Shown in pieces: positions 12,440-52,815 of a stretch of DNA of 64,000 bases. Each line of letters opens with the position of its first letter. Positions within the stretch are counted from its first letter, which is position 1. The notes beneath the pieces are model-generated. The model was not told the DNA's origin, made no database searches, and worked only from the letters and a program-made list of their open reading frames with translations. Made by a program: the position numbers and the translations under genes. Source of the DNA: a virus; the IMG/VR virus record IMGVR_UViG_3300036715_002842, positions 1-64,000 of that record; one strand, given 5' to 3'.

Positions 12440-12793
12440 TTAGGTGGCCTTGTGGACATACACCTTTAAACCCCGCTTAGTTGCGATCTCTACCATACCC
12501 CTGGTACCTTTGGACCGACCGTTCCAGATCGCAATAAGGGCATCCGCCTTCGCGGCCATTTCTGCGTTTCGAACCATTCCAGCTTCAGGGTGAAAGACTC
12601 CGTCAATCGTCCACTTGGCAGGATATTCTTCCCAGGGAATCCCGTTGATCTTTGCGAACTCAATTGCGTCCAGGTCAATCCCCTTCGCCTTACCGGAGAG
12701 GATTACTGAAATCTCAAAGCCGGACTGTTCAACCGCTTCGCATACTAGTTGGATGTCGCAGATATCCCGACCGCCGGCAATGATAGTTCTCAT
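12440..12793 (-). CDS. SLOG-family (YspA/DUF2493-like) protein
   Basis: IIAGGRD, SGKAKGID, AGMVRNAEM, WNGRSKGT. Confidence 0.8.
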   Translation of the reverse strand: MRTIIAGGRDICDIQLVCEAVEQSGFEISVILSGKAKGIDLDAIEFAKINGIPWEEYPAKWTIDGVFHPEAGMVRNAEMAAKADALIAIWNGRSKGTRGMVEIATKRGLKVYVHKAT

Positions 12794-12808: not shown

Positions 12809-13582
12809 CTAGAAACCAACCATCGCTGAAAGGAGCTTCGGAAGATCAAACCGCACTCCAGCGGTGTATCTCAGCTCAATCGGTCCAACACTCTGCAGGT
12901 TTCGATTGTATGAGAAGTCAAAGAACACACTATTGCCATCCGTAACGGGGTAAAGGTGGTATCTGGCTCTCCCCACAATTCGTGCTGGTTCGGCGTAAAA
13001 CTTGTCGTGCCCTGCAGAAAGTTCGAGTTGGATGATGTTGTGTCGACCTTCATCGAGTGGCACTACGTAGTGATAGCCGACACGGTAGGATCCAGAACGG
13101 TCTCTATTGCCCACGTTGTCGTTCTTGATATAGTCGAACAGTCGAACATCGAGAAAAGGGCCGGCGGCTTTAATAGACTTGTTGACACGATTGGTATCGA
13201 AGGACCAACCCAGAGTCAAGGTTCCACAAGTTCGAGAGGCGGTTTTGATCCCAGAACTATCAAATCCGGTTGAAGGAGATGGTGGATCTGTTAGAGTTCC
13301 ACCTGTTTGGGGAAGGGTCTCAAAGCCAACGCTAACATTTACGTAGTAAAAGCCGGTGAGAGTCTTTCTGATGGGGGACTGAATTGGCTTTTGGATGAGA
13401 AAGAGGTTGAAGACTGTAGAGGTGTAATTCGATTGGAACACTCCGGCAGAATTAGGTGCGTTGTTGATGTTGGTATTTACTCGGGCCACATCAACCGTAG
13501 CAGTCACTGGACTTGACTTGGGTCCCTGGGAGATGTCTTGTGGCTCTTCCATTGCAAGGACTAGCAACGCAGCAAGTAGCAT
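12809..13582 (-). CDS. putative exported beta-rich (outer-membrane-like) protein
   Basis: Hydrophobic N-terminus, alternating amphipathic strands, C-terminal Phe. Confidence 0.5.
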   Translation of the reverse strand: MLLAALLVLAMEEPQDISQGPKSSPVTATVDVARVNTNINNAPNSAGVFQSNYTSTVFNLFLIQKPIQSPIRKTLTGFYYVNVSVGFETLPQTGGTLTDPPSPSTGFDSSGIKTASRTCGTLTLGWSFDTNRVNKSIKAAGPFLDVRLFDYIKNDNVGNRDRSGSYRVGYHYVVPLDEGRHNIIQLELSAGHDKFYAEPARIVGRARYHLYPVTDGNSVFFDFSYNRNLQSVGPIELRYTAGVRFDLPKLLSAMVGF

Positions 13583-32051: not shown

Positions 32052-32126
32052 TGGTGCCCCCGGTGGGGTTCGAACCCACGACCTGAAGATTATGAGCCAT
32101 CTGCTCTGCCGCTGAGCTACAGGGGT
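32052..32126 (-). tRNA. tRNA-Ile2/Met (CAT)
   Basis: Cloverleaf, loop CTCATAA, CCA end; A1:C72 mismatch. Confidence 0.85.
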
Positions 32127-32168
32127 ATTGGTATATTGGTTTGACTTGAGGAAAGATGGATTTCGGAA

Positions 32169-32252
32169 TGGTACCCCTTCTCGGACTCGAACCGAGACGC
32201 TCGAAAGCATAGGACCTAAACCTATTGACTGGACCAATTCGTCTAAAGGGGC
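32169..32252 (-). tRNA. tRNA-Leu (TAG)
   Basis: ATAGG-TTTAGGT-CCTAT, long V arm, CCA. Confidence 0.9.
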
Positions 32253-32515
32253 ATTTGATCTTCTGTCCTTACTATTGTGGAACCCGCAACCGGGTTTGAA
32301 CCTTACCACACGCGGATATCAGTTCCGCCACGCTCGCATTGGTTGATGAATTAGGCGGATTCACCACTGGTCGGTTTTCCCTCCCCATTAAGACCAGTGC
32401 GCACCAGCCTTAACTACGGTCGACCTTTACGGTTCTCTGGGGCTAAGCCACTTGAATCCGATAGGTGGTACCCGTTCTCGGAAATGACTTAACGATACGA
32501 AGAGCCGTCAAGAAT

Positions 32516-32591
32516 TGGAGCCCACAACCGGGTTCGAACCGATGACCTCCTGATTACAAAGCAGGTGCTCTACCAACTGAGCTATGCAGGC
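32516..32591 (-). tRNA. tRNA-Thr (TGT)
   Basis: Loop TTTGTAA, GGTTCGAACCC T arm, CCA. Confidence 0.85.
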
Positions 32592-32610
32592 AAAGGTGTC
32601 GGACTGAAAC

Positions 32611-33048
32611 TTGAAGGGCCATCCGACTGCCACTCAAAGGTGGGTGCATATATCGCTAGGCCGAAGGTATTTTGGATGCGGTAGATCTAAGAGATCCGAA
32701 GTCCTTGACAGTTTTGGAAAGAAGGTTCTTCTTGACTCGACTTACGAATTGGAGGTTTCGGAACTTTTGAATCAGCTTGGAATTCGTTGGATTAGACCCA
32801 AACCATTGAGTTGGTATTTGGAGGGCAAGCAGCACCTATACCACCCAGATTTCTTTTTAACGGATTTCAATCTCTATCTGGATCCGAAGAACGACTATCT
32901 AGCTCGAATTGATGTAGGGAAAATTTCCCTAGTAAGTTGGCAGAACGCAGTTGTAATTCGAATTCTAACCAAGAAGCAAATTACACTTGAGTATCTGAAA
33001 GGATTGGTAGCCCCGGAGAATTTTGAAATCTCGACCTACCGCGTGTAA
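32611..33048 (+). CDS. PD-(D/E)XK / TnsA-like free-standing endonuclease (possibly truncated)
   Basis: DSTYE...YHPDFFL...YLDPKND; antisense to the tRNA cluster. Confidence 0.65.
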   Translation: MKGHPTATQRWVHISLGRRYFGCGRSKRSEVLDSFGKKVLLDSTYELEVSELLNQLGIRWIRPKPLSWYLEGKQHLYHPDFFLTDFNLYLDPKNDYLARIDVGKISLVSWQNAVVIRILTKKQITLEYLKGLVAPENFEISTYRV

Positions 33049-33079
33049 GGCGATTGCTCTACCTCTGAGCTACAGGGCT
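33005..33079 (-). tRNA. tRNA-Val (TAC)
   Basis: ATCGC-CTTACAC-GCGGT, CCA. Confidence 0.85.
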
Positions 33080-33735
33080 AAGGTCGGGGATTCTTCAGCG
33101 GCGCCACCTAGGAGATCCCCTACAATTGCCGCCTGCTGGGGACTAGCATTGCTGCCCCACCCTCACCACCAGGTCTACCGAGTTAGGGCCTGATCCTGGA
33201 TTAAGATCCGGCCCCCTTGACCGGTGCGCACAACTGATCTTGTTCGGGGAACTGGAGTCCCGGCCGGATGACAACTCCAACTCCCCTTCAACCACCGCCC
33301 TCGAGGGGTAACAGTGAACCGAAGTCCACAGTGGTCGATCTAGTTCGGGGACCCACCACCCGCGTGGTTGCAGGTCCCCTTCGGACGCCTGACGGCCAGT
33401 CCGATCTTTAAGATATTCGGGAGTTCACGCCTCACTCCCTAGCGTCCAAGACTTTGCGGCGAAGTGACAATCCTAAGATCGTCTCCGAAGTTGCAGAGCA
33501 TCTTCGTGTAGCGCGTGGATCCTTTTGTAACTTTGACAGTTTCCAACAACCTTTAGAGGGAAGTCTTTCACTATCCTGGAGATTGCGGGAGTAGGTGCTG
33601 TGTCGGGCACCACGACCTTCAGAAGCAAGAAGAGGCTTGAATGACCGTCCAAGTATCTCTCCACCCTCACACGCGGTAGGCGTGGGGCTCGTCCTTCTGT
33701 TCCAGACCGGTTTCTGGCTGTGTACCGGTAAATGC

Positions 33736-33810
33736 TGGTGGACCTGGAGGGAATTGAACCCCCGACATCTGCCTTGCAAAGGCAGCGTTCTCCCGCTGAA
33801 CTACAGGCCC
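33736..33810 (-). tRNA. tRNA-Ala (TGC)
   Basis: CTGCC-TTTGCAA-GGCAG, G3:U70, CCA. Confidence 0.92.
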
Positions 33811-33846
33811 GTGCTGTCAAACAACTTAATCTTTAACCTACTTTGT

Positions 33847-33921
33847 TGGTACTCCCAGTTGGAATCGAACCAACGTCTAGAGCTTAGAAGGCTCTTGCTA
33901 AATCCCCTCAGCTATGGGAGC
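33847..33921 (-). tRNA. tRNA-Arg (TCT)
   Basis: AGAGC-CTTCTAA-GCTCT, CCA. Confidence 0.92.
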
Positions 33922-33924
33922 GAA

Positions 33925-34007
33925 TGGAGGCCCGGTGGAGAGTCGAACTCCTAACCTTTCGGACGAGGGTTGCAATCTCGCGCCAGTCCACACCAGCTTC
34001 CCGAGCC
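33925..34007 (-). tRNA. tRNA-Cys (GCA), atypical D and V arms
   Basis: Loop TTGCAAC, U73, CCA; extra CC-GAAA-GG variable hairpin. Confidence 0.75.
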
Positions 34008-34025
34008 TAGGTCTTGCATCTTGAA

Positions 34026-34102
34026 TGGTAGCCCAGGTGGGAGTCGAACCCACAGAACCCAGATTTTGAATCTGGTACCTATACCAATTCGGTTACTGAG
34101 CC
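34026..34102 (-). tRNA. tRNA-Leu (CAA), short variable loop
   Basis: CCAGA-TTCAAAA-TCTGG, A73, CCA. Confidence 0.88.
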
Positions 34103-34295
34103 ATTGAGTACGTGGCGGACCCTTTCATAGTTTCCACCCTTTGGAGTCAATCCAACTTGTAGTAGGATTTGACGAATGTTTTTGCAAGTTTTAGACGCTT
34201 CTGAAATTTGCTCATCTGTTACTTTTGTCTTGCAGTTGATGTTTCTTCCTCGGTACGTTTCAGTTTGGCTATGACAGTTTGGACATAGAAGAGAA
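34103..34295 (-). pseudogene. HNH endonuclease remnant
   Basis: Start-less frame LLCPNCHSQTETYRGRN...IRQILLQVGLTPKGGNY. Confidence 0.65.
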
Positions 34296-34305
34296 TTTTA
34301 AGGAT

Positions 34306-34587
34306 TGGTGCGCCCGGCCGGAATCGAACCGGCACGCTCTTACGAACAACAGATTTTCATCCTACTTCATGTTGCCATGACCGTTTCCGTTGTAGGCTGG
34401 ACTATCCCTTGACCTTATCCGAGGACTTAGGCCCCCACCGTCTAGTCTCTACACCTTCCTATTTCTAGGCTTGGCTCGGGATTGTCCTAAGGAGTTTCCC
34501 CGAATTTGATGGGATTCACGCTGGAGGTTTCCGACCCAGGTGCTCAAATCATAAGTCTGTGGCGTCTACCAGTTCCGCCACGGGCGC
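34306..34587 (-). tRNA. tRNA-Leu (TAA) interrupted by group I intron
   Basis: Exons 34587-34553 and 34357-34306 splice to ACAGA-CTTAAAA-TCTGT with long V arm and CCA. Confidence 0.9.
34358..34552 (-). ncRNA. self-splicing group I intron (195 nt), trnL(UAA) type
   Basis: Inserted at U^AA; conserved core AAATTCGGGGAA, AATCCCGAGC, GTAGAGACTAGACGG, GATAGTCC; ends in G. Confidence 0.88.
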
Positions 34588-34716
34588 AAAAGTTAGGGCT
34601 CGCTACGACACTTCCCACCTATCGATGGATCAACATGCCACCGGGTCTTACGGCCACACCTAACACAACCTCCGATTTACCCAAGATAATCGGTTTAAAA
34701 TACTGCTTGGGGCAGT

Positions 34717-34804
34717 TGGAGCGGGAGATGGGACTTGAACCCACGATGGACTTTCGTCACGTCAGCTTGGAAGGCTGATGCCTTAACCACTAGGCTACAC
34801 CCGC
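34717..34804 (-). tRNA. tRNA-Gly (TCC) with long variable arm
   Basis: GCG...CGC-U73-CCA acceptor; TCAGC-CTTCCAA-GCTGA; variable region CGTGACGAAAGTCCATC. Confidence 0.85.
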
Positions 34805-34939
34805 TTTGGAGAAACCTGGAAAATTTCATCCAGATTTCAAGGTAGAAGGAAAATTTGTGGCAACGTGATGACATTCGCTACTACGTATCCCCAAGCCTAA
34901 CACTCTAGGTAGCTTGGTTTATGTCAAGAGGACTTTTAT

Positions 34940-35308
34940 TGGTGGAGGTGGGGGAAATCGAATCCCCGTCCGAAAAGCTTCAGAAGGTAATTCATTCACA
35001 GGCTTAGTTCGAATCTAGTGACCTCTGTGGAGGATCGAACAACTCCAATCGAGGACTTGTTCCTTTGTCTCAACTGGAAGCCAGGAACACTCTTCCAATC
35101 CAGTTTATCTCTTCACCTCAGCAGGACGAATCCACCCTCGGATCTGATGCAACTAGGCTACTAAACGATCACCTAGAGGTTGCTGCTTACGCAGCCTGGA
35201 GAAAACGATCGTTTTCGGCAGTTGTGTTTGTTGGGCTTTTTAGGAGGCCAGCCCACCTCCGCCTGCACTACACTCCGGATTAGCCATCCGTCGAAACCTG
35301 GCACCCCC
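34940..35308 (-). ncRNA. ssrA: tmRNA, tag (A)AENDRFLQAA
   Basis: GGGGGTG...TTCGAC 5' end, G3:U acceptor, GGGGATTCGATTTCCCCCACCTCCACCA 3' end; resume codon after ACAACT. Confidence 0.92.
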
Positions 35309-35441
35309 AAGAGTTGGATTGGCTTGTAGGACCAATCCTGAGAGATCGTTACATTTGGTTTGCACCTACTAACGATTCACACCTTAGCACCGGTTCACCT
35401 TCCACCGAAAGGTTCCCCAAGTTGCTTAGACCTGGGAATTG

Positions 35442-35512
35442 TAGGTCCAGAGGGTATCGAACCCTCTTCCTCGCCTTAAAAGGGCGATGCTTCACCTTAA
35501 AGCTTTGGACCC
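35442..35512 (-). tRNA. tRNA-Lys (TTT), CCA not encoded
   Basis: TCGCC-CTTTTAA-GGCGA; GAGGG-TTCGATA-CCCTC. Confidence 0.85.
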
Positions 35513-35605
35513 GTTTGATGGGGATAGGAGGCAATGACCCATTCGGAGCCGCCTACCGTTAACCCATGCTGGACCCCACGGTCAGACCAGCATGCCCAAG
35601 ATTCA

Positions 35606-35679
35606 GACCAAAGAGTGGGTTCGAACCACTGTCCTCCCCAGACGTGCTGGGCGCTCTGACCGGCTGAGCTACCTTGGTC
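35606..35679 (-). ncRNA. tRNA-like element with 5-nt anticodon loop
   Basis: Canonical D arm (TAGCTCAGCCGGTCAGAGC) and T arm (AGTGG-TTCGAAC-CCACT), but CCCAG-CACGT-CTGGG and no CCA. Confidence 0.6.
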
Positions 35680-35730
35680 CTTTCCAGCTAGTGCACTAGC
35701 GTCAACAAGCCCGGATGTGGGTCTAGAACT

Positions 35731-35938
35731 CCACGGGGCTTGCAGGGAACTGATTGGTGGTAGCCCGATCCTCTGCTACTGAGCAAGTTGACCGGCACCT
35801 CATCGGGATGACGACCAACTGGCACCGAAGTGCACCACGGGGCTTGCAGGGAACTGATTGGTGGTAGCCCGATCCTCTGCTACTGAGCAAGTTGACCGGC
35901 ACCTCATCGGGATGACGACCAACTGGCACCGAAGTGCA
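35731..35938. repeat. perfect 104-bp tandem duplication
   Basis: 35731-35834 identical to 35835-35938. Confidence 0.92.
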
Positions 35939-35946
35939 CCAAAGAA

Positions 35947-36084
35947 CTACTTCACTCCCTCCTTTCTCCGGAGCAGCTCGAACTTCGCTGCCGCGGCCAG
36001 AAGGGATCCTGACTGAACCACCGCCTGCAACTGCGAGACGGTCATCCTACGCACGCTCTCTGCGTGCTTGCTTGATTGTGCCAT
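35947..36084 (-). CDS. small hypothetical protein (45 aa)
   Basis: AAGGAGG RBS; MAQSSKHAESVRRMTVSQLQAVVQSGSLLAAAAKFELLRRKEGVK*. Confidence 0.55.
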   Translation of the reverse strand: MAQSSKHAESVRRMTVSQLQAVVQSGSLLAAAAKFELLRRKEGVK

Positions 36085-36524
36085 GGGGCACCTCCTTCCA
36101 ACAAGTTGTTGGAAGGTCTTACGTGTCTGCGTACCTCATCGTTGCTCCTTTTGGAAAAGTGGAAGGATCGGGTTCGGTGTTATTTCACCCTCCAGGTCGT
36201 GTAACGTCCTAGGGAAGTCCCACCCGATTTCTTGAAGATATTTGGTTGGGGATTGGTGGCCACCGCACCCCAACCTACCTGTCGGTCCTATTGCCGTGGA
36301 TCGTTCATTCCCAACCTCCACGAGGAGTAGGTCCTTTTCGTCCCTGTTGGCAGCGACCGGTCTGTGCCGGGCTCACCGCTAGTTCTGTGGAGTCAGGGCT
36401 CCAGACATCCCGAGGGGAATTTGCACGGGACGATCTTGTGTTACAGAAAGGTACGAGTAGGAGTTCGCAAAGCTCCATTCTCCACTCATTGCGGAGATCC
36501 TGCACTTGGAGGTGATACTCGTAA

Positions 36525-36601
36525 TGGTCGGCTATGAGTGATTCGAACACTCGACCTTCGCGACCCAAACGCGACGCGCTACCAGGCTGCGCTAATAGCC
36601 G
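36525..36601 (-). tRNA. tRNA-Pro (TGG)
   Basis: CGG...CCGA-CCA; TCGCG-TTTGGGT-CGCGA. Confidence 0.92.
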
Positions 36602-36798
36602 GGAGGACTCGGTTTTAGTGGAGTTGACTGGAACCCGACCCCGAGTCACCCAGTTGCGCTGCTCCGCTGGGATGCCGGAGGTATTCACCGCTTTCGCGGG
36701 GCGCTGGAGGTCCCCTCAGTCAGTGGGAACCGGGGTCTAACACCTGATGCGCTTTTCGCTCTTGGGCCGCTTTTCATGACCGTTCAGGCAGTTACCTT

Positions 36799-36872
36799 TG
36801 GTTAGGGTGGTAGGATTCGAACCTACGAGGGGAGCGTCAAAGACTCCTGGTTTACCGCTAGCCTACACCCCA
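36799..36872 (-). tRNA. tRNA-Gln (TTG)
   Basis: U1:A72; GGAGT-CTTTGAC-GCTCC; CCA. Confidence 0.88.
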
Positions 36873-46897: not shown

Positions 46898-47251
46898 AAG
46901 ATTTCTCTACCCCCTCTGGGCTATTTGCCCGGATAATTGAGTCCAAGATCCATCAAGGATGACTCGATGCTGGTCACCACCTTAGGCACTTTCAGAAACC
47001 CGTGTAAAATAACGGAGATTCGAGGTACCACGGGTCAAATGGTGGTTGGTATTCTATCCGTTAAGAGTATTACTTTCTACCATTTGAGGAAAGTTCTAAA
47101 GGGCAATTTTCTGGGTGACTTTGCATTTTCAAAGTTCCTCAAAAAATTGAGCCTTGATTTTTCTTCGAGACCCGGTAAATTAGTAGTATATGTTCCCCAG
47201 AGGCCCCGGCTCCCCCACCTTCTCTACTGCCCCACTTTCTAGAGGTGCTTA

Positions 47252-48343
47252 ATGCGCTTGCTGATGTTCCGGTCTCAACTCACACCTCAGGGGATAACAT
47301 TCGTACCTCGTGAGGGTGAGCCGGCGCGATATAGCATCTTCCAGGACATCCACGACTACATCAAGATGAGCACTGAGAGTCTTCTCCATCCTCAGGCGGC
47401 GGTCGATCTGGTCATGGACAGCATCGCTCTACGTATCCTGCACCTGCCTCAGGCTCCGGACCACAAGGAGATCTACAGCAGTCAGTGCACCATCCGTAAG
47501 ACCAATGCGGATACCGGGAACGAGTGGTATGAGAAGACCCGGGACTTCAAAAACAAGTTTATGTATTGCATCAACTTCAACCGTATATCTCGTGCAGCGG
47601 AAGAAGCGATTGACAATCCGAAGAAGACCCTCATCTCTATTGCCAGCTTCTGGGATGTTTCCGAATACGAACTGGAACAGATTCTGAACTGGTATTACGA
47701 AACCGGACAGCAGCTCTACGGTGCCAAGGACCAGCGCCCTGAGTGGTGGGGGCAGCGCATTGATGAGGTTGCCCGCTACAAGGCTCTGGAATTTGAGTTC
47801 GTCAAGCAGGTGAACAAGAAACTGGCTACCCCGGCCTTCAGCTACCTCGTGGACTTCTACGAGTCCAGAGAATCCATCGTCCAGGACTTGATGCGAGAAG
47901 CCTGGCGCGCAGTTCTGGATACTTCCCACAAGCCGGAGCTTGATACCCTTCGCATGGGTAAGACCTACATCAATACGGTCATCCATCACGTGGCCCAGAG
48001 CTACACCAAGCACCATGGGAAGCAGGCTTACAACAAGCAGAACGATACTTACGAGACCATCGAGTTCTCTCTTCTGAGTGAACCGGACATGGATGAGTCC
48101 AAGCACTTCTTCCTGGCCCACGAGGTAAGTGAGTATCACGAAATGGAAGTCTTCCATACCCTCGACAAGGTTCTGGCTGACAATGAGATGACCCTGGTGC
48201 GGGTCCTCACTGGTGATCTGGAGAGTCCGGAATTCGAGAGTTACGCCTCGGGAATGTCCAGTCGTAGGATTGCGGCCTTCACCTTCTTCAAGGTGGACGC
48301 TGAGAACCTGCGGGACAAGTTCGGATACCTGTTCCACAGCTAA
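47252..48343 (+). CDS. hypothetical protein, possibly divergent sigma-factor-like
   Basis: ESIVQDLMREAWRAV...KTYINTVI resembles sigma region 2; weak. Confidence 0.4.
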   Translation: MRLLMFRSQLTPQGITFVPREGEPARYSIFQDIHDYIKMSTESLLHPQAAVDLVMDSIALRILHLPQAPDHKEIYSSQCTIRKTNADTGNEWYEKTRDFKNKFMYCINFNRISRAAEEAIDNPKKTLISIASFWDVSEYELEQILNWYYETGQQLYGAKDQRPEWWGQRIDEVARYKALEFEFVKQVNKKLATPAFSYLVDFYESRESIVQDLMREAWRAVLDTSHKPELDTLRMGKTYINTVIHHVAQSYTKHHGKQAYNKQNDTYETIEFSLLSEPDMDESKHFFLAHEVSEYHEMEVFHTLDKVLADNEMTLVRVLTGDLESPEFESYASGMSSRRIAAFTFFKVDAENLRDKFGYLFHS

Positions 48344-48826: not shown

Positions 48827-49105
48827 CTAACTAGCGAGCGGCAGCTTTTCAATTTCTGCCATGAATGAAGGTGGGGTTGTGAAAGCTGCCGCTCGAGGTA
48901 TCTTAAAGTACGGATCGGTAAATCCGATGGCACCTTCAGAGATGGCATCCTTAATAAGGAACCGTGGAGTGTCCAGGATGACCAGAGTTTCGTTCTTCCA
49001 CTCTTCCGGATACTCTAGAACGAACTGAGCAATAGCGTGCCCAGCTTGAGACATCTTTTGTCCGAAAGAAAGTTTTTCGTCGATCAGAATGTAGAGCTTA
49101 GTCAT
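48827..49105 (-). CDS. PTH2-like peptidyl-tRNA hydrolase
   Basis: KLYILID..LS.GQKMSQAGHA...W...LVIL, resembling the PTH2 N-terminal motif. Confidence 0.7.
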   Translation of the reverse strand: MTKLYILIDEKLSFGQKMSQAGHAIAQFVLEYPEEWKNETLVILDTPRFLIKDAISEGAIGFTDPYFKIPRAAAFTTPPSFMAEIEKLPLAS

Positions 49106-49409
49106 CGCTTTCCTCGTCTTCATCGTTCTTCTTGATGAGATAGGGTTTGAGAGGGTCCATATAAATGACCCCATCCTTCTTGAACGCTTCCTCGATTGCA
49201 GACATGGGAAACTTGAAAGTGTAATAGTTGTCGTTACAACTGTAAGAACAACGGCAAGGATTCACTTCCCGAATATTCGCGATAAGATGGTCACCCTCCA
49301 TTCGAAATCCCTGCAACCTAAAGTTGCTGAAGAGCTTGGAGTGATAGAAGGCGTCCTTGAGCTTCTGTTCAAACTTCTTCGTGGCTTGAAGGGTTTCGGT
49401 GTAAGACAT
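49098..49409 (-). CDS. hypothetical protein
   Basis: GGAG RBS before MSYTETLQ. Confidence 0.65.
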   Translation of the reverse strand: MSYTETLQATKKFEQKLKDAFYHSKLFSNFRLQGFRMEGDHLIANIREVNPCRCSYSCNDNYYTFKFPMSAIEEAFKKDGVIYMDPLKPYLIKKNDEDEESDD

Positions 49410-49499
49410 TGGAATTCTCCACAAGTTGTAAAAGTTGATTGACAAACCGGATATGCAGCTCCGTTAACATCCTCTTCAAAGGCTTGCTGTCTAACCTCT

Positions 49500-49673
49500 T
49501 CAGATTGTGGGATGGTAATCCTTTCCAGCAATCTTTACCCAGTTTGACATTCCAATCAAGAGGTGACCGTGCTGAGAAGGGGAGAAGGGGACTAGCCCCT
49601 TCCCATCACAGTGCAGACTTGGCTTAGACGATTCGAAGACCGTCCGGCAACCAAGACAGATCCACTCTTTCAT
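49500..49673 (-). CDS. small zinc-ribbon-like protein (57 aa)
   Basis: TGATG coupling; MKEWICLGCRTVFESSKPSLHCDG... Confidence 0.5.
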   Translation of the reverse strand: MKEWICLGCRTVFESSKPSLHCDGKGLVPFSPSQHGHLLIGMSNWVKIAGKDYHPTI

Positions 49674-50119
49674 CACTTCCCCTCTTGCATGTCGAGGAGG
49701 ATCTGCGTACTCAGACCCTGCTGGAAGTCCAGAGTCTCCTTACGGAAACGCTTCTTCTCTTCCCAAGCGGCGATGTCCTCAGCAATCATTTCCTTCCATT
49801 CCGCGAGCTGGCGCTGAGAATAGTGGTCGGCTTGCTTGTGGAAGTAAGAACGGCTGGGATTCCGGTTGGGCTCGATCTGCTCGAGGGTACGTCCACGGAG
49901 AAGGCAGTAAGCGATGTGCTTCGCTCTCCAATTCTGATCGTCGCAGCTGTAGAAGTTCTCGGGCTTGATTGCCAGGAGCTTGGCGCGAAGTTCTTCCTGT
50001 TGCTCCCCGGGAATGGAAGGCTTGAAGGTGGCATCGTAACGCCGTTCCCAATGCCTGCAAGCCACTTCGTGCTTGAGCTCTGCCTTGATGGTTGCGATCA
50101 GTTCTTTGTAAGTGGTCAT
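49673..50119 (-). CDS. hypothetical protein, first gene of the amber-gated operon
   Basis: 148 aa; RAKHIAYCLLRGRTLEQIE; RBS lies inside a hairpin. Confidence 0.75.
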   Translation of the reverse strand: MTTYKELIATIKAELKHEVACRHWERRYDATFKPSIPGEQQEELRAKLLAIKPENFYSCDDQNWRAKHIAYCLLRGRTLEQIEPNRNPSRSYFHKQADHYSQRQLAEWKEMIAEDIAAWEEKKRFRKETLDFQQGLSTQILLDMQEGK

Positions 50120-50121
50120 TA

Positions 50122-50173
50122 GATTCTCCGAAATTTGAAAAGTTTGAGAAAAGGTTTTCGAATTTGGAGAATC
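50122..50173 (-). promoter_or_regulatory. RBS-sequestering hairpin
   Basis: GATTCTCC-AAATT-CGAAAA pairs with TTTTCA-AATTT-C-GGAGAATC, burying the GGAG of the gene starting at 50119. Confidence 0.75.
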
Positions 50174-50198
50174 ACTAAGGTGGGCGGTTCTACGTCAT
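50172..50198 (-). promoter_or_regulatory. amber minigene 2 (M-T-UAG-N-R-P-P-UAG-UGA)
   Basis: AAGGAG-6 nt-ATG ACG TAG AAC CGC CCA CCT TAG TGA. Confidence 0.7.
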
Positions 50199-50209
50199 CG
50201 TAGGCTCCT

Positions 50210-50329
50210 TTACGAACAGAAAAAACCCAACAGAGGCTGCTGGGCAGCTGATCCGTTGGGGAGGAAGTGTTCTTGCGAACACAGATTTTTGTGGTGTGGC
50301 AAAACTTTGGAGCCGCGAATCTACTTCAT
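50210..50329 (-). promoter_or_regulatory. amber minigene 1 / leader ORF (M-K-UAG, then 36 open codons to TAA)
   Basis: GAGGG RBS, ATG AAG TAG; frame stays open through the terminator to TAA 50212-50210. Confidence 0.65.
50220..50260 (-). terminator. intrinsic terminator/attenuator in leader
   Basis: CCCAACGGA..GCTGC-CCA-GCAGC..TCTGTTGGG-TTTTTT. Confidence 0.8.
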
Positions 50330-50342
50330 GGTCTTGTCCCTC

Positions 50343-50380
50343 AAATGGTTGGTACTACCCAAAATGGTTGGTACTACCCA
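50343..50380. repeat. 19-bp direct tandem repeat in leader
   Basis: AAATGGTTGGTACTACCCA x2. Confidence 0.85.
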
Positions 50381-50387
50381 AAGACTA

Positions 50388-50416
50388 ATTATAACCCCGG
50401 ATCTTTCGTTTGCCAA
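50388..50416 (-). promoter_or_regulatory. sigma70-like promoter of the amber-gated operon
   Basis: TTGGCA-17 nt-TATAAT. Confidence 0.75.
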
Positions 50417-50480
50417 GGTTTGACGGAAAAATTATTTTACCCTTGGCTTCATGGTTACATATCAGTGACGATCTTGATGG

Positions 50481-51518
50481 TCATGGCTGACTCCCAGAAG
50501 TAAGGACGTTTCGTTCCATGGGCTGACCGTGCATCCAGTGTTTCACGGTCTGGACATGGGAGGCCCGGACGAACTTCCCAACCTTGACCCGAAACTCAGA
50601 GAAGGGGAATGCCTCGGCCACCCGGACCACATAGCCCTCCTGGCGATCCCATTTGCGCTTGTCCCACAAGGCGCGGATGGCCTTTTCGTCATAGATTCCG
50701 TCGTAGAGTACGGGAACAGGAGTAATCCCCAACAGGGCAAACCATTCCAGCGTCTCGTCCCAGGGGAGGCAGATGTTCCGGTCATCCCAGATGGAGAACC
50801 CAAGCAGGTAGCTGGGAAGGCCGTCGTAGCCGATGGAATGCTTGGCGTAGAGGTTTTCGCCGCACACTCGCCATCCTTCCGGGATGTCCATACGGATCTG
50901 GGACCAGAATTGCTTGACCCAGTTCCGGCTGGGGTGACTGCGCCCATCCAGGCTCCGAGCGTGGATGTGATCCTGGTAGAGGGACGTGTTTTCTCCGTCC
51001 ATTTTCTCGGTAACGATCACCCGCTTCCCTGCGAGGGCTGCGGTGGAATCCATCATTCGGTCGTCGTCGTTCATTCCCTCCGACCATGGCAGATGGTGGG
51101 TCCTGGGATACTTGACCCAGTGGGTGAATAGGCTAAGAACGCCGCCAATGGCGAGCACCTTCTGAACGCTCTCGTCATGGAACAACTCCCCCTTGAGGCG
51201 CTGGCCATTGGGGAGGATGGGATTCCCCCACTTGTCATAAGGCTGGTCCGCGTAGAGATGTGGTGGGAGCAAAGATTTGGTGATCCCGCAGGCGTTACGA
51301 ACATCCTCGGTGGAGATCTCTGTGGTTTCGCACCGCATGTGGTGATCGCCACAAACGGAAGCGCCGTTGTCGAGGTAGTAGCCTCCGTCCGGCCACAGTC
51401 TGCGTTCCAGGATGTGGTGGGCGTCCGCAGCAGGTTCCCCGCAGAAGACACAGCGGCCCTTGGCGCGAGCAAACACGGCCTCGCGGAAAGCGTCTCTGGT
51501 TAGCAGCAGGGCGTTCAT
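50481..51518 (-). CDS. HNH domain fused to RNA ligase
   Basis: N-terminal CVFC...DAHHI...C..HH; KYPRTHHL, VTEKMDGEN, CGENL, EGYVVR. Confidence 0.85.
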   Translation of the reverse strand: MNALLLTRDAFREAVFARAKGRCVFCGEPAADAHHILERRLWPDGGYYLDNGASVCGDHHMRCETTEISTEDVRNACGITKSLLPPHLYADQPYDKWGNPILPNGQRLKGELFHDESVQKVLAIGGVLSLFTHWVKYPRTHHLPWSEGMNDDDRMMDSTAALAGKRVIVTEKMDGENTSLYQDHIHARSLDGRSHPSRNWVKQFWSQIRMDIPEGWRVCGENLYAKHSIGYDGLPSYLLGFSIWDDRNICLPWDETLEWFALLGITPVPVLYDGIYDEKAIRALWDKRKWDRQEGYVVRVAEAFPFSEFRVKVGKFVRASHVQTVKHWMHGQPMERNVLTSGSQP

Positions 51519-51639
51519 TGGGTGGTTCCTTTCGAGTTGGATTCATTACATTTCAGACGCTACCGTATGGCGTACCTGTGGGTGTATCCCCTTGAATTCT
51601 GGCTCGTAGTGTTTCAAAGCGGTTTCACTCTTAAAAAAG

Positions 51640-51711
51640 TCCCCACGGTGGTAGTCGAAACCACGACACAGTGTTTTAGAAGCACCTGCTCTACCGTTGA
51701 GCTACGTGGGG
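51640..51711 (-). tRNA. amber suppressor tRNA (anticodon CTA)
   Basis: CCCCACG/CGTGGGG acceptor, TAGCTCAACGGTAGAGC D arm, GGTGC-TTCTAAA-ACACT, GTGGT-TTCGACT-ACCAC; CCA not encoded. Confidence 0.8.
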
Positions 51712-51730
51712 AAAGATCTGCTACCTAGAA

Positions 51731-51758
51731 AGAATAACCTTGAATTTTGAATTGTCAA
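51731..51758 (-). promoter_or_regulatory. promoter of the suppressor tRNA
   Basis: TTGACA-16 nt-TATTCT, 19 nt upstream of the tRNA. Confidence 0.65.
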
Positions 51759-51825
51759 TCCGAAATTATGAAAAAGCGACCAGTTCTCTGGTCGCTCTTA
51801 AGAACAGGAAGAAAAGTTAAATTAT

Positions 51826-52815
51826 CTATTCATCTGAGTGCGCCAGGGCAGCGAACAGGCACCCCTTCGCGATAGCCTTCAGAGGATCCTCAGCACGAAC
51901 TACCTTGCCAATCTTGATGGGGAGGTTCTGCGCCTTGAGAGCCTCTTCGAACAGTTCGATGAACCCGCCGGGAAGAGAGGTTCCACCTGCGACTGCGATC
52001 TTGGGCGGCTTCTGGAAGTCTGGTAGCTTCGCCATGCCAAGGAGTTTGTCCTTGATTTGCTTGGCTACGTACTCCAACATCGCCTTGTAGTAGTACGAAA
52101 TGGCTTCCTCGGTCTGATCCTTGGGCTTGCGGAGATCAATGATCCCCTCCTTTGCGAGCATAGCCTTGACCGTGGAGATACCCAGAGAGGTGGAAACGTT
52201 CTTGTCAATGTAGTCACCGGAACGGGCTACGGAGAAGTTGAAGGCTTCCACACTCAATTGTGCGCAGCAGACATTGCACATGCCAGCGCCCCACGAAACA
52301 CCAAAGCCAGAAAGATTGTCCTCGAGGAGTTCACTGTAAATGACCGACAGACCTTCATTGAGTGGTACTGGAGTGTAACCCATGTCGGTTAGGATCTTGT
52401 TGAACACATTCGAGTGGTAAACTGCATTGAACTCCTGATCGACTGGATCCCCTGGGACGGAGTAGACCACCTTTTCTTTCTTGGTGGCAGGAGCCCCAAG
52501 GGACTCTTTGATGATCGCCTGGATGATTGGCAGCGCCTTAATCTCATGGGGATTGAGAACACCTTGCGACATAGGTCGCTTGGGCTCACTGTTGAAAGCG
52601 CTAGCGAGCTCCAGTGCCTGCTGACCTAAAGCAGAAATTTCCCCCTCAAGTTCCACGTAAGGTGCACCCACCTTCTTGAGCATCGATTTTACGAAGGGGG
52701 ATTTCTCTACTGGTACGAAGATATTGCGGAAAGCTTTGTACTCGAAGCTCTCCCCATCTGCACCAACCCTCGCAGCTACGATATTTCCAGTTCCCAAATC
52801 TAGTCCACAGGGCAT
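51826..52815 (-). CDS. actin-like ATPase (MreB/ParM/FtsA superfamily)
   Basis: Phosphate-1 GLDLGTGN, LNEG, SWGAG, adenosine AGGTS, AIAKG. Confidence 0.85.
   Translation of the reverse strand: MPCGLDLGTGNIVAARVGADGESFEYKAFRNIFVPVEKSPFVKSMLKKVGAPYVELEGEISALGQQALELASAFNSEPKRPMSQGVLNPHEIKALPIIQAIIKESLGAPATKKEKVVYSVPGDPVDQEFNAVYHSNVFNKILTDMGYTPVPLNEGLSVIYSELLEDNLSGFGVSWGAGMCNVCCAQLSVEAFNFSVARSGDYIDKNVSTSLGISTVKAMLAKEGIIDLRKPKDQTEEAISYYYKAMLEYVAKQIKDKLLGMAKLPDFQKPPKIAVAGGTSLPGGFIELFEEALKAQNLPIKIGKVVRAEDPLKAIAKGCLFAALAHSDE

What the first reader, a model, noticed from the sequence alone, without database searches (positions are those of the whole stretch)
48827..51758. Candidate new system: an amber-readthrough double lock linking a phage suppressor tRNA to a peptidyl-tRNA hydrolase operon
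Seen on the minus strand, in order: promoter, tRNA(CUA), HNH-RNA ligase, promoter, minigene M-K-UAG, terminator, minigene M-T-UAG, RBS-hiding hairpin, three unknown genes, PTH2-like hydrolase. Both minigenes have an RBS and UAG as codon 3, and each sits just upstream of a repressive RNA structure. Established: translation-coupled attenuation, and peptidyl-tRNA drop-off from two-codon minigenes (lambda bar) relieved by Pth. Inference: the operon is expressed only when UAG is read through (suppressor tRNA charged, or RF1 limiting or inhibited), so it acts as a sensor of termination status. An alternative is that ribosome stalling on the minigenes reports low Pth/RF1 activity.
Basis: partly seen in the sequence, partly recalled or inferred. 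Interest (0 to 1): 0.92.

Follow-up and report, generated by a model that had tools for sequence, protein, structure and literature searches.

The report
Amber-stop-gated leader switch beside suppressor tRNA
A large phage carries a tRNA that reads the UAG stop codon next to a small operon whose tiny leader gene probably lets the operon be translated only when that UAG is read through; about two dozen distantly related phage loci keep the same design, and I found no paper describing it.

Summary
The second "minigene" (ATG ACG TAG AAC CGC CCA CCT TAG TGA, 50198-50172, minus strand) is not a two-codon minigene. It belongs to a conserved leader class: SD, start, up to 8 codons, UAG followed by a purine, then usually x-x-(K/R)-Pro-Pro-stop. 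That stop abuts a hairpin that hides the SD of an unnamed small helical protein gene.

In 24 unique homologous loci, found through that protein alone, 21 have an SD+ATG+UAG gate, against 6 of 875 control genes (p=3.6e-34). TAA and TGA are not enriched. A PTH2-like gene follows, overlapping the family gene's end, and a tRNA(CUA) lies downstream in 18-19 of 21 loci with enough flank.

The window's contig and one complete 175-kb carrier phage use the standard code, so this looks like a self-contained sensor of amber suppression.

Best reading: UAG readthrough lets a ribosome reach and dwell at Pro-Pro-stop, melt the hairpin and switch translation on. This is inferred, not shown.

The first minigene plus terminator ("first lock") has a canonical gate, but I saw it only here and it is unproven.

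Other agents of this scan found the same module on other DNA. No literature search of mine turned up a description.

The parts
51731..51758 (-). Promoter-like site P1 (TTGACA-16-TATTCT) upstream of the tRNA. It follows the terminator hairpin of the actin-like gene at 51771-51797.
   Evidence: sequence read; coordinates.
51639..51711 (-). tRNA with anticodon CUA (amber suppressor), anticodon loop UUCUAAA, followed by a T6 run at 51633-51638.
   Evidence: ARAGORN; Rfam RF00005 at 57.7 bits; aligns with the tRNA(CUA) genes of 17 related loci.
50481..51518 (-). HNH-domain + RNA ligase gene. It is an accessory insertion, not part of the core module.
   Evidence: Pfam RNA_ligase E 3e-32; phrog_24030 and HNH PHROGs. 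Contigs of sister strains join 50431 directly to 51633 at higher depth.
50388..50416 (-). Promoter P2 (TTGGCA-17-TATAAT, 11 of 12 matches) for the leader and operon.
   Evidence: It is the only such near-consensus site on this strand of the contig.
50345..50382 (-). Two tandem copies of a 19-nt repeat (TTTGGGTAGTACCAACCAT) at the start of the transcript. Role unknown.
   Evidence: Sister strains have about one copy (22 nt missing).
50210..50342 (-). Leader 1: SD GAGGG, ATG AAG TAG (50329-50321), then A. If the UAG is read, the frame runs 36 more codons through the terminator to TAA (50212-50210), which overlaps the SD of leader 2.
   Evidence: Its first five codons are identical to the L020 leader.
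50220..50261 (-). Intrinsic terminator: stem-loop 50261-50226 (-20.6 kcal/mol) followed by T6. A small GNRA-type hairpin lies at 50282-50267.
   Evidence: It is kept, and one G-C pair longer, in sister strains.
50172..50210 (-). Leader 2, a canonical UAG-gated leader: SD AAGGAG, then ATG ACG TAG AAC CGC CCA CCT TAG TGA, which reads M-T-[UAG]-N-R-P-P-stop-stop.
   Evidence: It is unchanged in sister strains.
50122..50173 (-). Hairpin whose 5' arm (50173-50161) starts inside the leader's terminal TGA and whose 3' arm (50135-50122) contains the SD GGAG (50129-50126) of the family gene.
   Evidence: In sister strains the indels fall only in the loop.
49673..50119 (-). 148-aa member of an unnamed small helical protein family with core motif R-x-K-H-I-A-Y-C-L-L-R-G-R-T-L-E-Q-I-E-P. 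It is the gene the leader controls directly.
   Evidence: No Pfam or PHROG family.
49500..49673 (-). 57-aa ORF, start overlapping the family gene's stop (TGATG), with a CxxC motif. Accessory.
   Evidence: 49106-49579 is skipped in contigs of sister strains.
49098..49409 (-). 103-aa ORF of unknown function. Accessory.
   Evidence: It lies inside the stretch skipped in sister strains.
48827..49105 (-). 92-aa PTH2-like protein. Its start overlaps the preceding stop by 8 nt.
   Evidence: Homologues directly follow the family gene in 17 or more loci.

Best explanation
The region holds a self-contained module that senses amber suppression. Its core parts are a tRNA(CUA), a promoter, a short leader ORF, a small helical protein gene of an unnamed family, and a PTH2-like gene.

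**Proposed mechanism (inferred):**
1. Ribosomes start on leader 2 and meet UAG at codon 3.
2. If release factor wins, they leave 17 nt before the hairpin. The hairpin stays shut, the SD of the family gene is hidden, and the operon is not translated.
3. If the suppressor tRNA reads the UAG, the ribosome goes four codons further to Arg-Pro-Pro-stop.
4. Peptide-bond formation and termination are slow at Pro-Pro-stop, so the ribosome dwells there.
5. The dwelling ribosome covers the first bases of the hairpin's 5' arm, which is the anti-SD.
6. This frees the SD, so the family gene is translated, and with it the downstream genes that overlap one another's stops and starts.

Leader 1 is a second gate of the same type, placed in front of a strong terminator. 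It may add a transcriptional lock: translation through the terminator only after readthrough, as in pyrBI. This part is weaker, and I put it at about 0.35-0.4.

**Shown versus inferred.** The anatomy, its conservation and its specificity for TAG are shown. The stall, the direction of the switch and the function of the two proteins are inferred. My best guess for the proteins is that they cope with, or tune, the consequences of UAG readthrough. The phage also carries a tmRNA, 13 tRNAs and an RNA ligase.
For: **Unbiased set.** The loci were retrieved only by homology to the 148-aa protein.

**TAG-specific gate.** SD+ATG+up to 8 codons+TAG lies within 170 nt upstream in 21 of 24 unique loci, against 6 of 875 control ORFs (p=3.6e-34). 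The same test gives 1/24 vs 18/875 for TAA and 1/24 vs 25/875 for TGA.

**Pro-Pro-stop.** TAG, then 1-18 codons, then Pro-Pro-stop ending 35-70 nt before the start, occurs in 16 of 24 family loci. Apart from the window's own gene, it occurs in 1 of 879 controls.

**Signs of translation.**
- In the 60 nt before Pro-Pro-stop, in-frame TAG occurs 19 times against 4 and 6 in the other frames. In-frame TAA (3) and TGA (1) are avoided.
- Pro codons vary freely at the third position, and the residue before them is K or R through several different codons. This points to selection on the peptide.

**Context of the UAG.** The base after the gate TAG is A (9) or G (6), never a pyrimidine. By my own knowledge of Bossi 1983 and Miller & Albertini 1983, that is the classical good context for amber suppression.

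**Hairpin.**
- It starts 0-5 nt after the leader stop in 13 of 16 loci and contains the SD.
- The arms differ in sequence between loci but stay complementary.
- SD-containing helices are longer than in controls (p=0.001).

**Linked genes.**
- A tRNA(CUA) lies on the same strand within about 1.1 kb in 18-19 of 21 loci with flank.
- A PTH2-like gene follows the family gene directly, overlapping its end by 8-32 nt in nine of the ten loci measured.

**Standard code.** This contig has stops TAA 50, TGA 41, TAG 35. The complete 175-kb phage G001 also uses the standard code. TAG is therefore a real stop in these phages.

**Sister strains.** They keep both gates, the terminator and the hairpin arms, and they vary in the hairpin loop.

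**Proline stalling.** Pro at a nascent chain's C terminus slows termination (Hayes, Bose & Sauer 2002, cited in PMC12856214). RAPP/RGPP motifs arrest ribosomes even with short N-terminal parts (PMC10951233, PMC12992588).
Against: - No expression or ribosome data. No RNA run was listed for this DNA.
- SD pairing as such is common. In a crude control the SD was paired in 64% of family genes against 44% of other genes (p=0.11). The hairpin argument therefore rests on its position, its length and its complementary arms.
- This window's motif is N-R-P-P-stop, not the tested RAPP/RGPP. Its final stop is itself a TAG, backed by TGA.
- The nascent peptide is only 7-8 residues long, and whether so short a peptide stalls is untested.
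- The gene order here differs from most loci. The tRNA is upstream, and the PTH2-like gene is separated from the family gene by two ORFs.
- The window's PTH2-like protein gets no Pfam hit of its own.
- For leader 1, all three frames across the terminator are open (P about 0.4 by shuffling), and no other locus in my set shows a gate-plus-terminator pair.
Confidence: 0.7

Rival explanations
1. Single lock only. Leader 2 is the working switch. Leader 1 is a decayed duplicate of it (M-K-UAG-I-R-G-S-K, with no Pro-Pro-stop). The terminator is then a plain attenuator, or the end of a roughly 160-nt small RNA made from P2, and is not gated by UAG readthrough.
For: - Leader 1 shares 15 of its first 24 nt with leader 2 but lacks Pro-Pro-stop.
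- The openness of its readthrough frame is uninformative.
- A -1/+1 indel pair changes 22 of its codons in sister strains.
- No other locus in my set has a gate in front of a terminator.
- The tandem repeat next to it varies in copy number.
Against: - A second SD+ATG+TAG gate arises by chance in only about 0.7% of upstream regions.
- The gate, the A after the TAG and the terminator are all kept in sister strains.
- No sigma-70-like promoter lies between the terminator and the operon on this strand, so transcripts must pass the terminator.
- The readthrough frame ends on a TAA that overlaps the SD of leader 2.
Confidence: 0.5
2. The leader reports release-factor-1 activity rather than the phage tRNA. 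For example, the phage or a stress could inhibit RF1, and near-cognate or host tRNAs would then provide the readthrough.
For: - What the ribosome senses at the UAG is the balance of RF1 against decoding, and sequence alone cannot separate the two.
- Recoded phages are thought to manipulate release factors (10.1101/2021.08.26.457843).
Against: - A tRNA(CUA) lies within about 1.1 kb on the same strand in 18-19 of 21 loci, which argues that the tRNA is the intended input.
- No release-factor gene or known RF1 inhibitor was seen near the module.
Confidence: 0.12
3. Opposite polarity. Readthrough and the stall at Pro-Pro-stop repress the operon, for instance by triggering mRNA cleavage or rescue at the stalled ribosome. 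This would give negative feedback on the module.
For: - Stalled ribosomes at Pro-stop attract tmRNA tagging (Hayes et al. 2002, cited).
- The phage has its own tmRNA.
- Homeostatic control of a suppressor would make sense for a phage that ends 28% of its genes in TAG.
Against: - The stall site lies 50-58 nt before the start, too far to block it.
- The stalled ribosome sits exactly on the anti-SD arm, which is the geometry of activating attenuators.
- In L005 the leader stop overlaps a start codon (TAATG). In L010 and L016 the gate is in frame with the family ORF. In both arrangements readthrough can only switch expression on.
Confidence: 0.08
4. There is no gating, for one of two reasons. Either these phages read TAG as an amino acid throughout, so the leader is an ordinary short ORF, or the pattern is a chance by-product of an ordinary intergenic region.
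For: - Some carriers have an in-frame TAG inside the PTH2-like gene (L005, L011), so some may be partly recoded.
- The window's contig is only about 38% of a genome.
Against: - TAG is an ordinary stop in this contig and in the complete genome G001.
- 19 in-frame TAGs in 17 leaders of under 20 codons each is far more than a rare sense codon would give.
- The enrichment over controls is p=3.6e-34 and is specific to TAG.
Confidence: 0.04

Closest known systems
erm/cat/cmlA-type leader-peptide translational attenuation
   Same: A short leader ORF with its own SD. A ribosome that dwells at a defined leader codon melts a hairpin that hides the SD of the next gene.
   Different: The trigger there is an antibiotic bound to the ribosome. 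Here, access to the stall site is gated by readthrough of an in-frame UAG, and the signal is a tRNA encoded beside the switch.
RAPP/RGPP arrest peptides (ApdA, ApdP; SecM with RAG-P). PMC10951233, PMC7897499, PMC12992588.
   Same: A basic residue followed by Pro-Pro at the leader's end, upstream of a regulated gene. The arrest works even with short N-terminal parts.
   Different: Here the motif is (K/R)-P-P immediately followed by a stop, and N-R-P-P in this window. The leaders are 7-20 codons long, lie in phages rather than upstream of Sec/YidC genes, and carry a UAG in front of the motif. Other agents of this scan report RGPP versions of the same module.
prfB (RF2) autoregulation by +1 frameshifting at an early in-frame UGA
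   Same: An early in-frame stop codon is used as a sensor of how efficiently that stop is recognised.
   Different: prfB senses its own product and uses a frameshift within one ORF. Here a separate leader, readthrough by a tRNA and an SD hairpin are used.
Synthetic suppressor-tRNA gating circuits (PMC7969014, PMC6412442)
   Same: Expression of a target is made conditional on an amber suppressor tRNA reading an early UAG.
   Different: Those circuits are engineered and place the UAG in the target ORF. This is a natural module, with the gate mostly in a separate arrest-type leader.
'Code change modules' of stop-codon-recoded phages (10.1101/2021.08.26.457843)
   Same: A phage-encoded suppressor tRNA clustered with translation-related genes.
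   Different: Those modules hold aminoacyl-tRNA synthetases and release factors and serve genomes full of in-frame stops, and no leader switch was described. This window's contig and a complete carrier genome use the standard code. The jumbo phage XacN1 likewise has CUA tRNAs with no known target (PMC5852040).
pyrBI attenuation (for leader 1 only)
   Same: A leader ORF that runs through an intrinsic terminator, so that a closely following ribosome could prevent termination.
   Different: pyrBI is tuned by UTP-dependent polymerase pausing. Here the ribosome would get that far only after UAG readthrough. This is untested and was not seen in other loci.
Lambda bar minigenes and Pth
   Same: Formally AUG plus one codon plus a stop, with an SD, and a peptidyl-tRNA-hydrolase-like gene nearby.
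   Different: The conserved frame continues past the UAG to Pro-Pro-stop, the stop is specifically UAG, and it is tied to a tRNA(CUA). Drop-off toxicity is not needed to explain the anatomy.

Membership tests
UAG-gated Pro-Pro-stop leader module (unnamed; defined here from 24 loci) | SD + start + up to 8 codons + in-frame TAG upstream of the family gene, with a purine after the TAG | tested here: met
   Leader 2 is AAGGAG-N6-ATG ACG TAG A; leader 1 is GAGGG-N8-ATG AAG TAG A. The family shows this in 21 of 24 loci against 6 of 875 controls. A purine follows the TAG in 15 of 15.
UAG-gated Pro-Pro-stop leader module (unnamed; defined here from 24 loci) | (K/R)-Pro-Pro-stop 4-6 codons after the TAG, ending about 50-58 nt before the start codon | tested here: met
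   Leader 2 has N-R-P-P-TAG-TGA, with the first stop ending 55 nt before the ATG at 50119. Leader 1 does not meet this.
UAG-gated Pro-Pro-stop leader module (unnamed; defined here from 24 loci) | Hairpin that starts within a few nt of the leader stop and pairs the SD of the family gene | tested here: met
   The first paired base is 2 nt after the stop, the SD GGAG is fully paired, and the fold is -15.2 kcal/mol with z = -3.9.
UAG-gated Pro-Pro-stop leader module (unnamed; defined here from 24 loci) | Controlled gene belongs to the R-x-K-H-I-A-Y-C-L-L-R-G-R-T-L-E-Q-I-E family | tested here: met
   Alignments A1 and A2. The family has 2161 cluster representatives at E<=1e-3.
UAG-gated Pro-Pro-stop leader module (unnamed; defined here from 24 loci) | PTH2-like gene directly after the family gene, and a tRNA(CUA) downstream on the same strand | tested here: inconclusive
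   Both are present on the same strand, but rearranged. The tRNA is 1.5 kb upstream, and directly upstream of P2 in sister strains. Two ORFs separate the family gene from the PTH2-like gene, and these are skipped in sister strains.
PTH2 peptidyl-tRNA hydrolase (Pfam PF01981) | Match to the family profile above the gathering score | tested here: inconclusive
   The window protein has no hit even at E<=10. It is 33-34% identical to homologues, of which L009 scores 28.1 against a cut-off of 23. A profile of the four proteins finds only Pth2 chains in the PDB, at E 0.02-0.28. Catalytic activity was not tested.
RAPP/RGPP arrest peptides | Arg-(Ala/Gly)-Pro-Pro core | tested here: not met
   Leader 2 reads N-R-P-P and has no Ala or Gly between Arg and Pro-Pro. 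In the set the residue before Pro-Pro is K 9, R 5, P 2, E 1. Failing this lowers the claim of membership, not the claim that it works alike.
RAPP/RGPP arrest peptides | Experimentally shown elongation arrest at Pro-Pro | not testable with these tools
   This needs toeprinting or in vitro translation.
erm/cat-type translational attenuators | Leader ORF plus an SD-sequestering hairpin placed so that a ribosome paused in the leader opens it | tested here: met
   Geometry. The footprint reasoning rests on general knowledge.
erm/cat-type translational attenuators | Induction by a ribosome-binding antibiotic | not tested
   Nothing in the anatomy suggests it. A UAG and a tRNA take the inducer's place.
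Stop-codon-recoded (code 15) phage | Many genes with in-frame TAG, and higher coding density when TAG is read as sense | tested here: not met
   ORF cover (ORFs of 100 aa or more) is 0.86 under both codes on the contig. Stops are TAA 50, TGA 41, TAG 35. Readthrough extensions after TAG are no longer than after other stops. The contig is only about 38% of a genome.
Lambda bar-type minigene | Function through peptidyl-tRNA drop-off from a two-codon ORF | not testable with these tools
   The conserved in-frame continuation past the UAG makes this reading unnecessary.

The most novel reading that the evidence does not exclude
The module is a closed feedback controller of genetic-code state. The UAG-gated leader measures suppression by the adjacent tRNA(CUA). 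The two proteins it releases, the helical family protein and the miniature PTH2-like hydrolase, act back on the decoding of UAG, for example on the suppressor tRNA, on its peptidyl or aminoacyl form, or on RF1. That would give a switch or a homeostat. It would be the missing control layer for phage code switching, and it would explain why standard-code phages keep 'orphan' suppressor tRNAs.
Probability: 0.25. Interest if true: 0.92.

Novelty: new variant of a known kind. Interest (0 to 1): 0.8.

Why it matters
- Phage amber-suppressor tRNAs are common, but in standard-code phages no target was known. For jumbo phage XacN1 the authors say so explicitly (PMC5852040).
- How recoded phages time or check their code switch is an open question (PMC10879173; 10.1101/2021.08.26.457843).
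- This module gives such tRNAs a dedicated, conserved target and a plausible read-out of whether suppression is working.
- The switch is short (about 80 nt), built from understood parts and directly testable with reporters.
- It would be a natural counterpart of the suppressor-gated circuits built by synthetic biologists.
- It also points to two small proteins as candidates for new players in stop-codon decoding or ribosome rescue. One is a large unnamed family with 2161 cluster representatives.

Tried and rejected
The contigs of the closest homologues (P0001-P0007, 41-95% identity) could not be fetched, so conservation of leader 1 could not be tested beyond sister strains.

**Searches that found little or nothing**
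- A degenerate N-terminal DNA pattern found nothing in viral contigs.
- A second viral scan gave no new loci.
- tblastn against deposited phages found nothing.
- Genome contigs gave only the contig already held as L017, filed in a Cytophagales MAG.

**Function of the family protein**
- AlphaFold gives a confident all-helical model (pLDDT 95.8).
- Foldseek, VIA-align (best Z 7.9, in the range of common helical arrangements), the ESM Atlas, Pfam and PHROGs gave no informative match.
- Complex prediction of the family protein with the PTH2-like protein gave no support (score 0.25, mark 0.32). This counts neither for nor against binding.

**Expression**
- No RNA holder was listed for this DNA.

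**Tests that turned out uninformative**
- A crude test of whether the SD is paired in the MFE fold did not separate family genes from controls (64% against 44%, p=0.11). I replaced it with helix length and position.
- The open frame across the terminator in leader 1, and its survival of a -1/+1 indel pair, is not informative. All three frames are open and the shuffle P is 0.41.

**Readings rejected**
- Recoding of this contig.
- Rfam families other than tRNA in the region: none found.

Full report
**What the window is.** The window is the first 64 kb of a single 105,575-bp virus contig (49.8% GC; CheckV about 38% complete). It carries 13 tRNAs and a tmRNA at 32-37 kb, plus a separate tRNA(CUA) at 51639-51711. 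TAG is an ordinary stop here. Among 126 greedily chosen ORFs the stops are TAA 50, TGA 41 and TAG 35. Coding density does not rise when TAG is read as sense, and in-frame extensions after TAG are no longer than after other stops.

**Checking the observation.**
- promoter P1;
- tRNA(CUA) (ARAGORN; Rfam 57.7 bits);
- an HNH + RNA-ligase gene;
- a near-consensus promoter P2, TTGGCA-17-TATAAT;
- SD + ATG AAG TAG (50329-50321);
- an intrinsic terminator of -20.6 kcal/mol followed by T6;
- SD + ATG ACG TAG (50198-50190);
- a 13-bp hairpin that pairs the SD of the gene starting at 50119;
- three ORFs;
- a 92-aa PTH2-like ORF.

The contig has only five SD+ATG-NNN-TAG sites on both strands, and two of them are in this leader.

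**The decisive evidence is comparative.** The 148-aa gene (49673-50119) has no Pfam or PHROG family. It does belong to a large unnamed family with a core motif R-x-K-H-I-A-Y-C-L-L-R-G-R-T-L-E-Q-I-E-P, which has 2161 cluster representatives at E<=1e-3. Searching two collections with the protein alone gave 28 loci, 24 of them unique. Most share only 26-48% identity with the window protein.

**A common leader appears in the upstream regions.** It consists of:
- a strong SD and a start codon;
- 0-6 codons;
- TAG;
- a short stretch that usually reads x-x-(K/R)-Pro-Pro;
- a TAA or TGA stop;
- directly after that stop, the 5' arm of a hairpin whose 3' arm holds the SD of the family gene.

Examples are MK*IREPP*, MKK*IAKKPP*, MY*ISKPP*, MS*IRPPP* and M*IYKPP*. 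The window's second "minigene" continues AAC CGC CCA CCT TAG TGA, which reads MT*NRPP*. It is therefore a canonical member and not a two-codon minigene.

**Statistics.**
- SD+ATG+up to 8 codons+TAG within 170 nt upstream: 21 of 24 family loci against 6 of 875 control ORFs (p=3.6e-34). The same test is flat for TAA (1/24 vs 18/875) and TGA (1/24 vs 25/875).
- TAG...Pro-Pro-stop ending 35-70 nt before the start: 16 of 24 family loci. Once the window's own gene is set aside, it occurs in 1 of 879 controls.
- In the 60 nt before Pro-Pro-stop, TAG is in frame 19 times against 4 and 6 in the other frames. In-frame TAA and TGA are avoided.
- Pro codons vary at the third position, and K/R is spelt with many codons. 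The frame is therefore under selection as a peptide.
- The base after the gate TAG is always a purine, A 9 and G 6. From my own knowledge, that is the classical favourable context for amber suppression.
- The distance from the leader stop to the start is 42-62 nt, mostly 50-58, and 55 in the window.

**The hairpin, with a caveat.** An SD paired in an MFE fold is common, 64% of family genes against 44% of controls (p=0.11). What stands out is something else. The SD-containing helices are longer than in controls (p=0.001). Their 5' strand begins 0-5 nt after the leader stop in 13 of 16 loci. The arms differ between loci but stay complementary.

**Linked genes.** A PTH2-like gene directly follows the family gene in 17 or more loci. 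Its start overlaps the family gene's end by 8-32 nt in nine of the ten loci measured. One copy passes the Pfam PTH2 cut-off (28.1 against 23), and a four-sequence profile finds only Pth2 chains in the PDB, weakly. A tRNA(CUA) follows on the same strand, 8-1050 nt further on, in 18 of 21 loci with enough flank. It is 19 if the L011 tRNA, which aligns with a CUCUAAA loop, is counted.

**Variants of the gate point to activation.**
- In L005 the leader's stop overlaps a start codon (TAATG).
- In L010 and L016 the gate is in frame with the family ORF.
- In six loci the TAG is also the stop of a longer upstream ORF.
- In L005 and L011 the PTH2-like gene itself holds an in-frame TAG.
- Several leaders have two TAGs, as does the window's leader 2.

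**Code of the carriers.** The complete 174,974-bp carrier G001 (CheckV 100%) uses the standard code. Coding density is 0.84 under the standard code against 0.853 with TAG as sense. Its stops are TAA 139, TGA 72 and TAG 33, and only four ORF pairs merge across a TAG. The module is therefore not just part of a recoded genome. It carries its own target for the suppressor.

**Sister strains.** Contigs from sediment and microbial-mat metagenomes show more abundant relatives with these differences:
- 50432-51632, the HNH-RNA ligase, is absent, so the tRNA abuts P2;
- 49106-49579, the two small ORFs, is skipped;
- the 19-nt repeat is single.

The compact order in those strains is tRNA(CUA), P2, leaders, family gene, PTH2-like gene. 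Both gates, the terminator (one G-C pair longer) and the hairpin arms are unchanged, and the hairpin indels fall in its loop.

**Mechanism (inferred).**
1. A ribosome released at the UAG stays 17 nt short of the hairpin.
2. A ribosome that reads the UAG reaches Arg-Pro-Pro-stop.
3. C-terminal prolines slow termination (Hayes et al. 2002, cited in PMC12856214), and Pro-Pro motifs after a basic residue arrest ribosomes (PMC10951233, PMC12992588).
4. The dwelling ribosome covers the anti-SD arm and frees the SD, as in erm/cat attenuators.
5. The operon is thus translated only while amber suppression works.

**Leader 1.** It has a canonical gate. Its first five codons equal those of the L020 leader, and an A follows the TAG. 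It lacks Pro-Pro-stop. After readthrough its frame crosses the terminator and ends on a TAA that overlaps the SD of leader 2. No sigma-70-like promoter follows the terminator, so a pyrBI-like transcriptional lock is plausible. However, all three frames are open there, and I saw no second example. I put this lock at 0.35-0.4.

**Function of the two proteins.** This remains open. The family protein models as a confident helical bundle with no informative structural or profile match.

**Prior work.** I found no paper that describes this switch. After I had reached this reading, the scan's own notes showed that other agents found the same module on other genomes, mostly with RGPP motifs, and also found no publication. 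Those notes are AI leads, not independent evidence.

Noticed in passing
window 51826-52815 (-): A 329-aa actin-like protein matches Pfam Volactin (PF25216) over its full length at E 2.3e-79. That family is named after an archaeal actin, yet here it sits in a phage contig, directly upstream of the tRNA(CUA).
   Followed up: no
window 32052-36872 (-): An array of 13 tRNA genes with a tmRNA (34940-35308, tag AENDRFLQAA). Together with the RNA ligase and the PTH2-like gene, this makes a large translation-maintenance set.
   Followed up: no
window 50432-51632: The HNH + RNA-ligase gene is absent from the more abundant sister strains, whose contigs join 50431 to 51633 directly. It looks like a mobile insertion between the tRNA and the switch.
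   Followed up: partly
window 50345-50382 (-): Two exact tandem copies of a 19-nt unit lie right after promoter P2. The unit is unique in the contig and is single-copy in sister strains. It could be an operator or an RNA element, or simply a polymorphic duplication.
   Followed up: partly
L005:5264-5266 and L011:5257-5259: The PTH2-like gene of two related loci has an in-frame TAG at the same alignment position, so in those phages the enzyme itself needs suppression.
   Followed up: partly
L017:3967-4134, L019:5455-5599, L005:5568-5703: Rfam finds tRNA matches with 70-100-nt insertions in the anticodon region, lying between the PTH2-like gene and the tRNA(CUA). They may be intron-bearing or otherwise interrupted tRNA genes.
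   Followed up: no
window 46937-47242 with 47252-48343 (+); 12809-13582 with 12440-12793 (-): Two pairs of ORFs lie in the same frame, separated only by a TAG (followed by A) and a few codons. They are possible readthrough fusions, though a shared frame arises by chance one time in three.
   Followed up: no
L044-L052 (G001, 174,974 bp): A complete standard-code phage carries the whole module (leader, family gene, PTH2-like gene, tRNA(CUA) at 113386-113460) and only four other tRNAs.
   Followed up: partly
L054 / L017: The 146,658-bp carrier contig is filed in a Cytophagales (Bacteroidota) metagenome-assembled genome. This is a hint, by binning only, at one host group.
   Followed up: no
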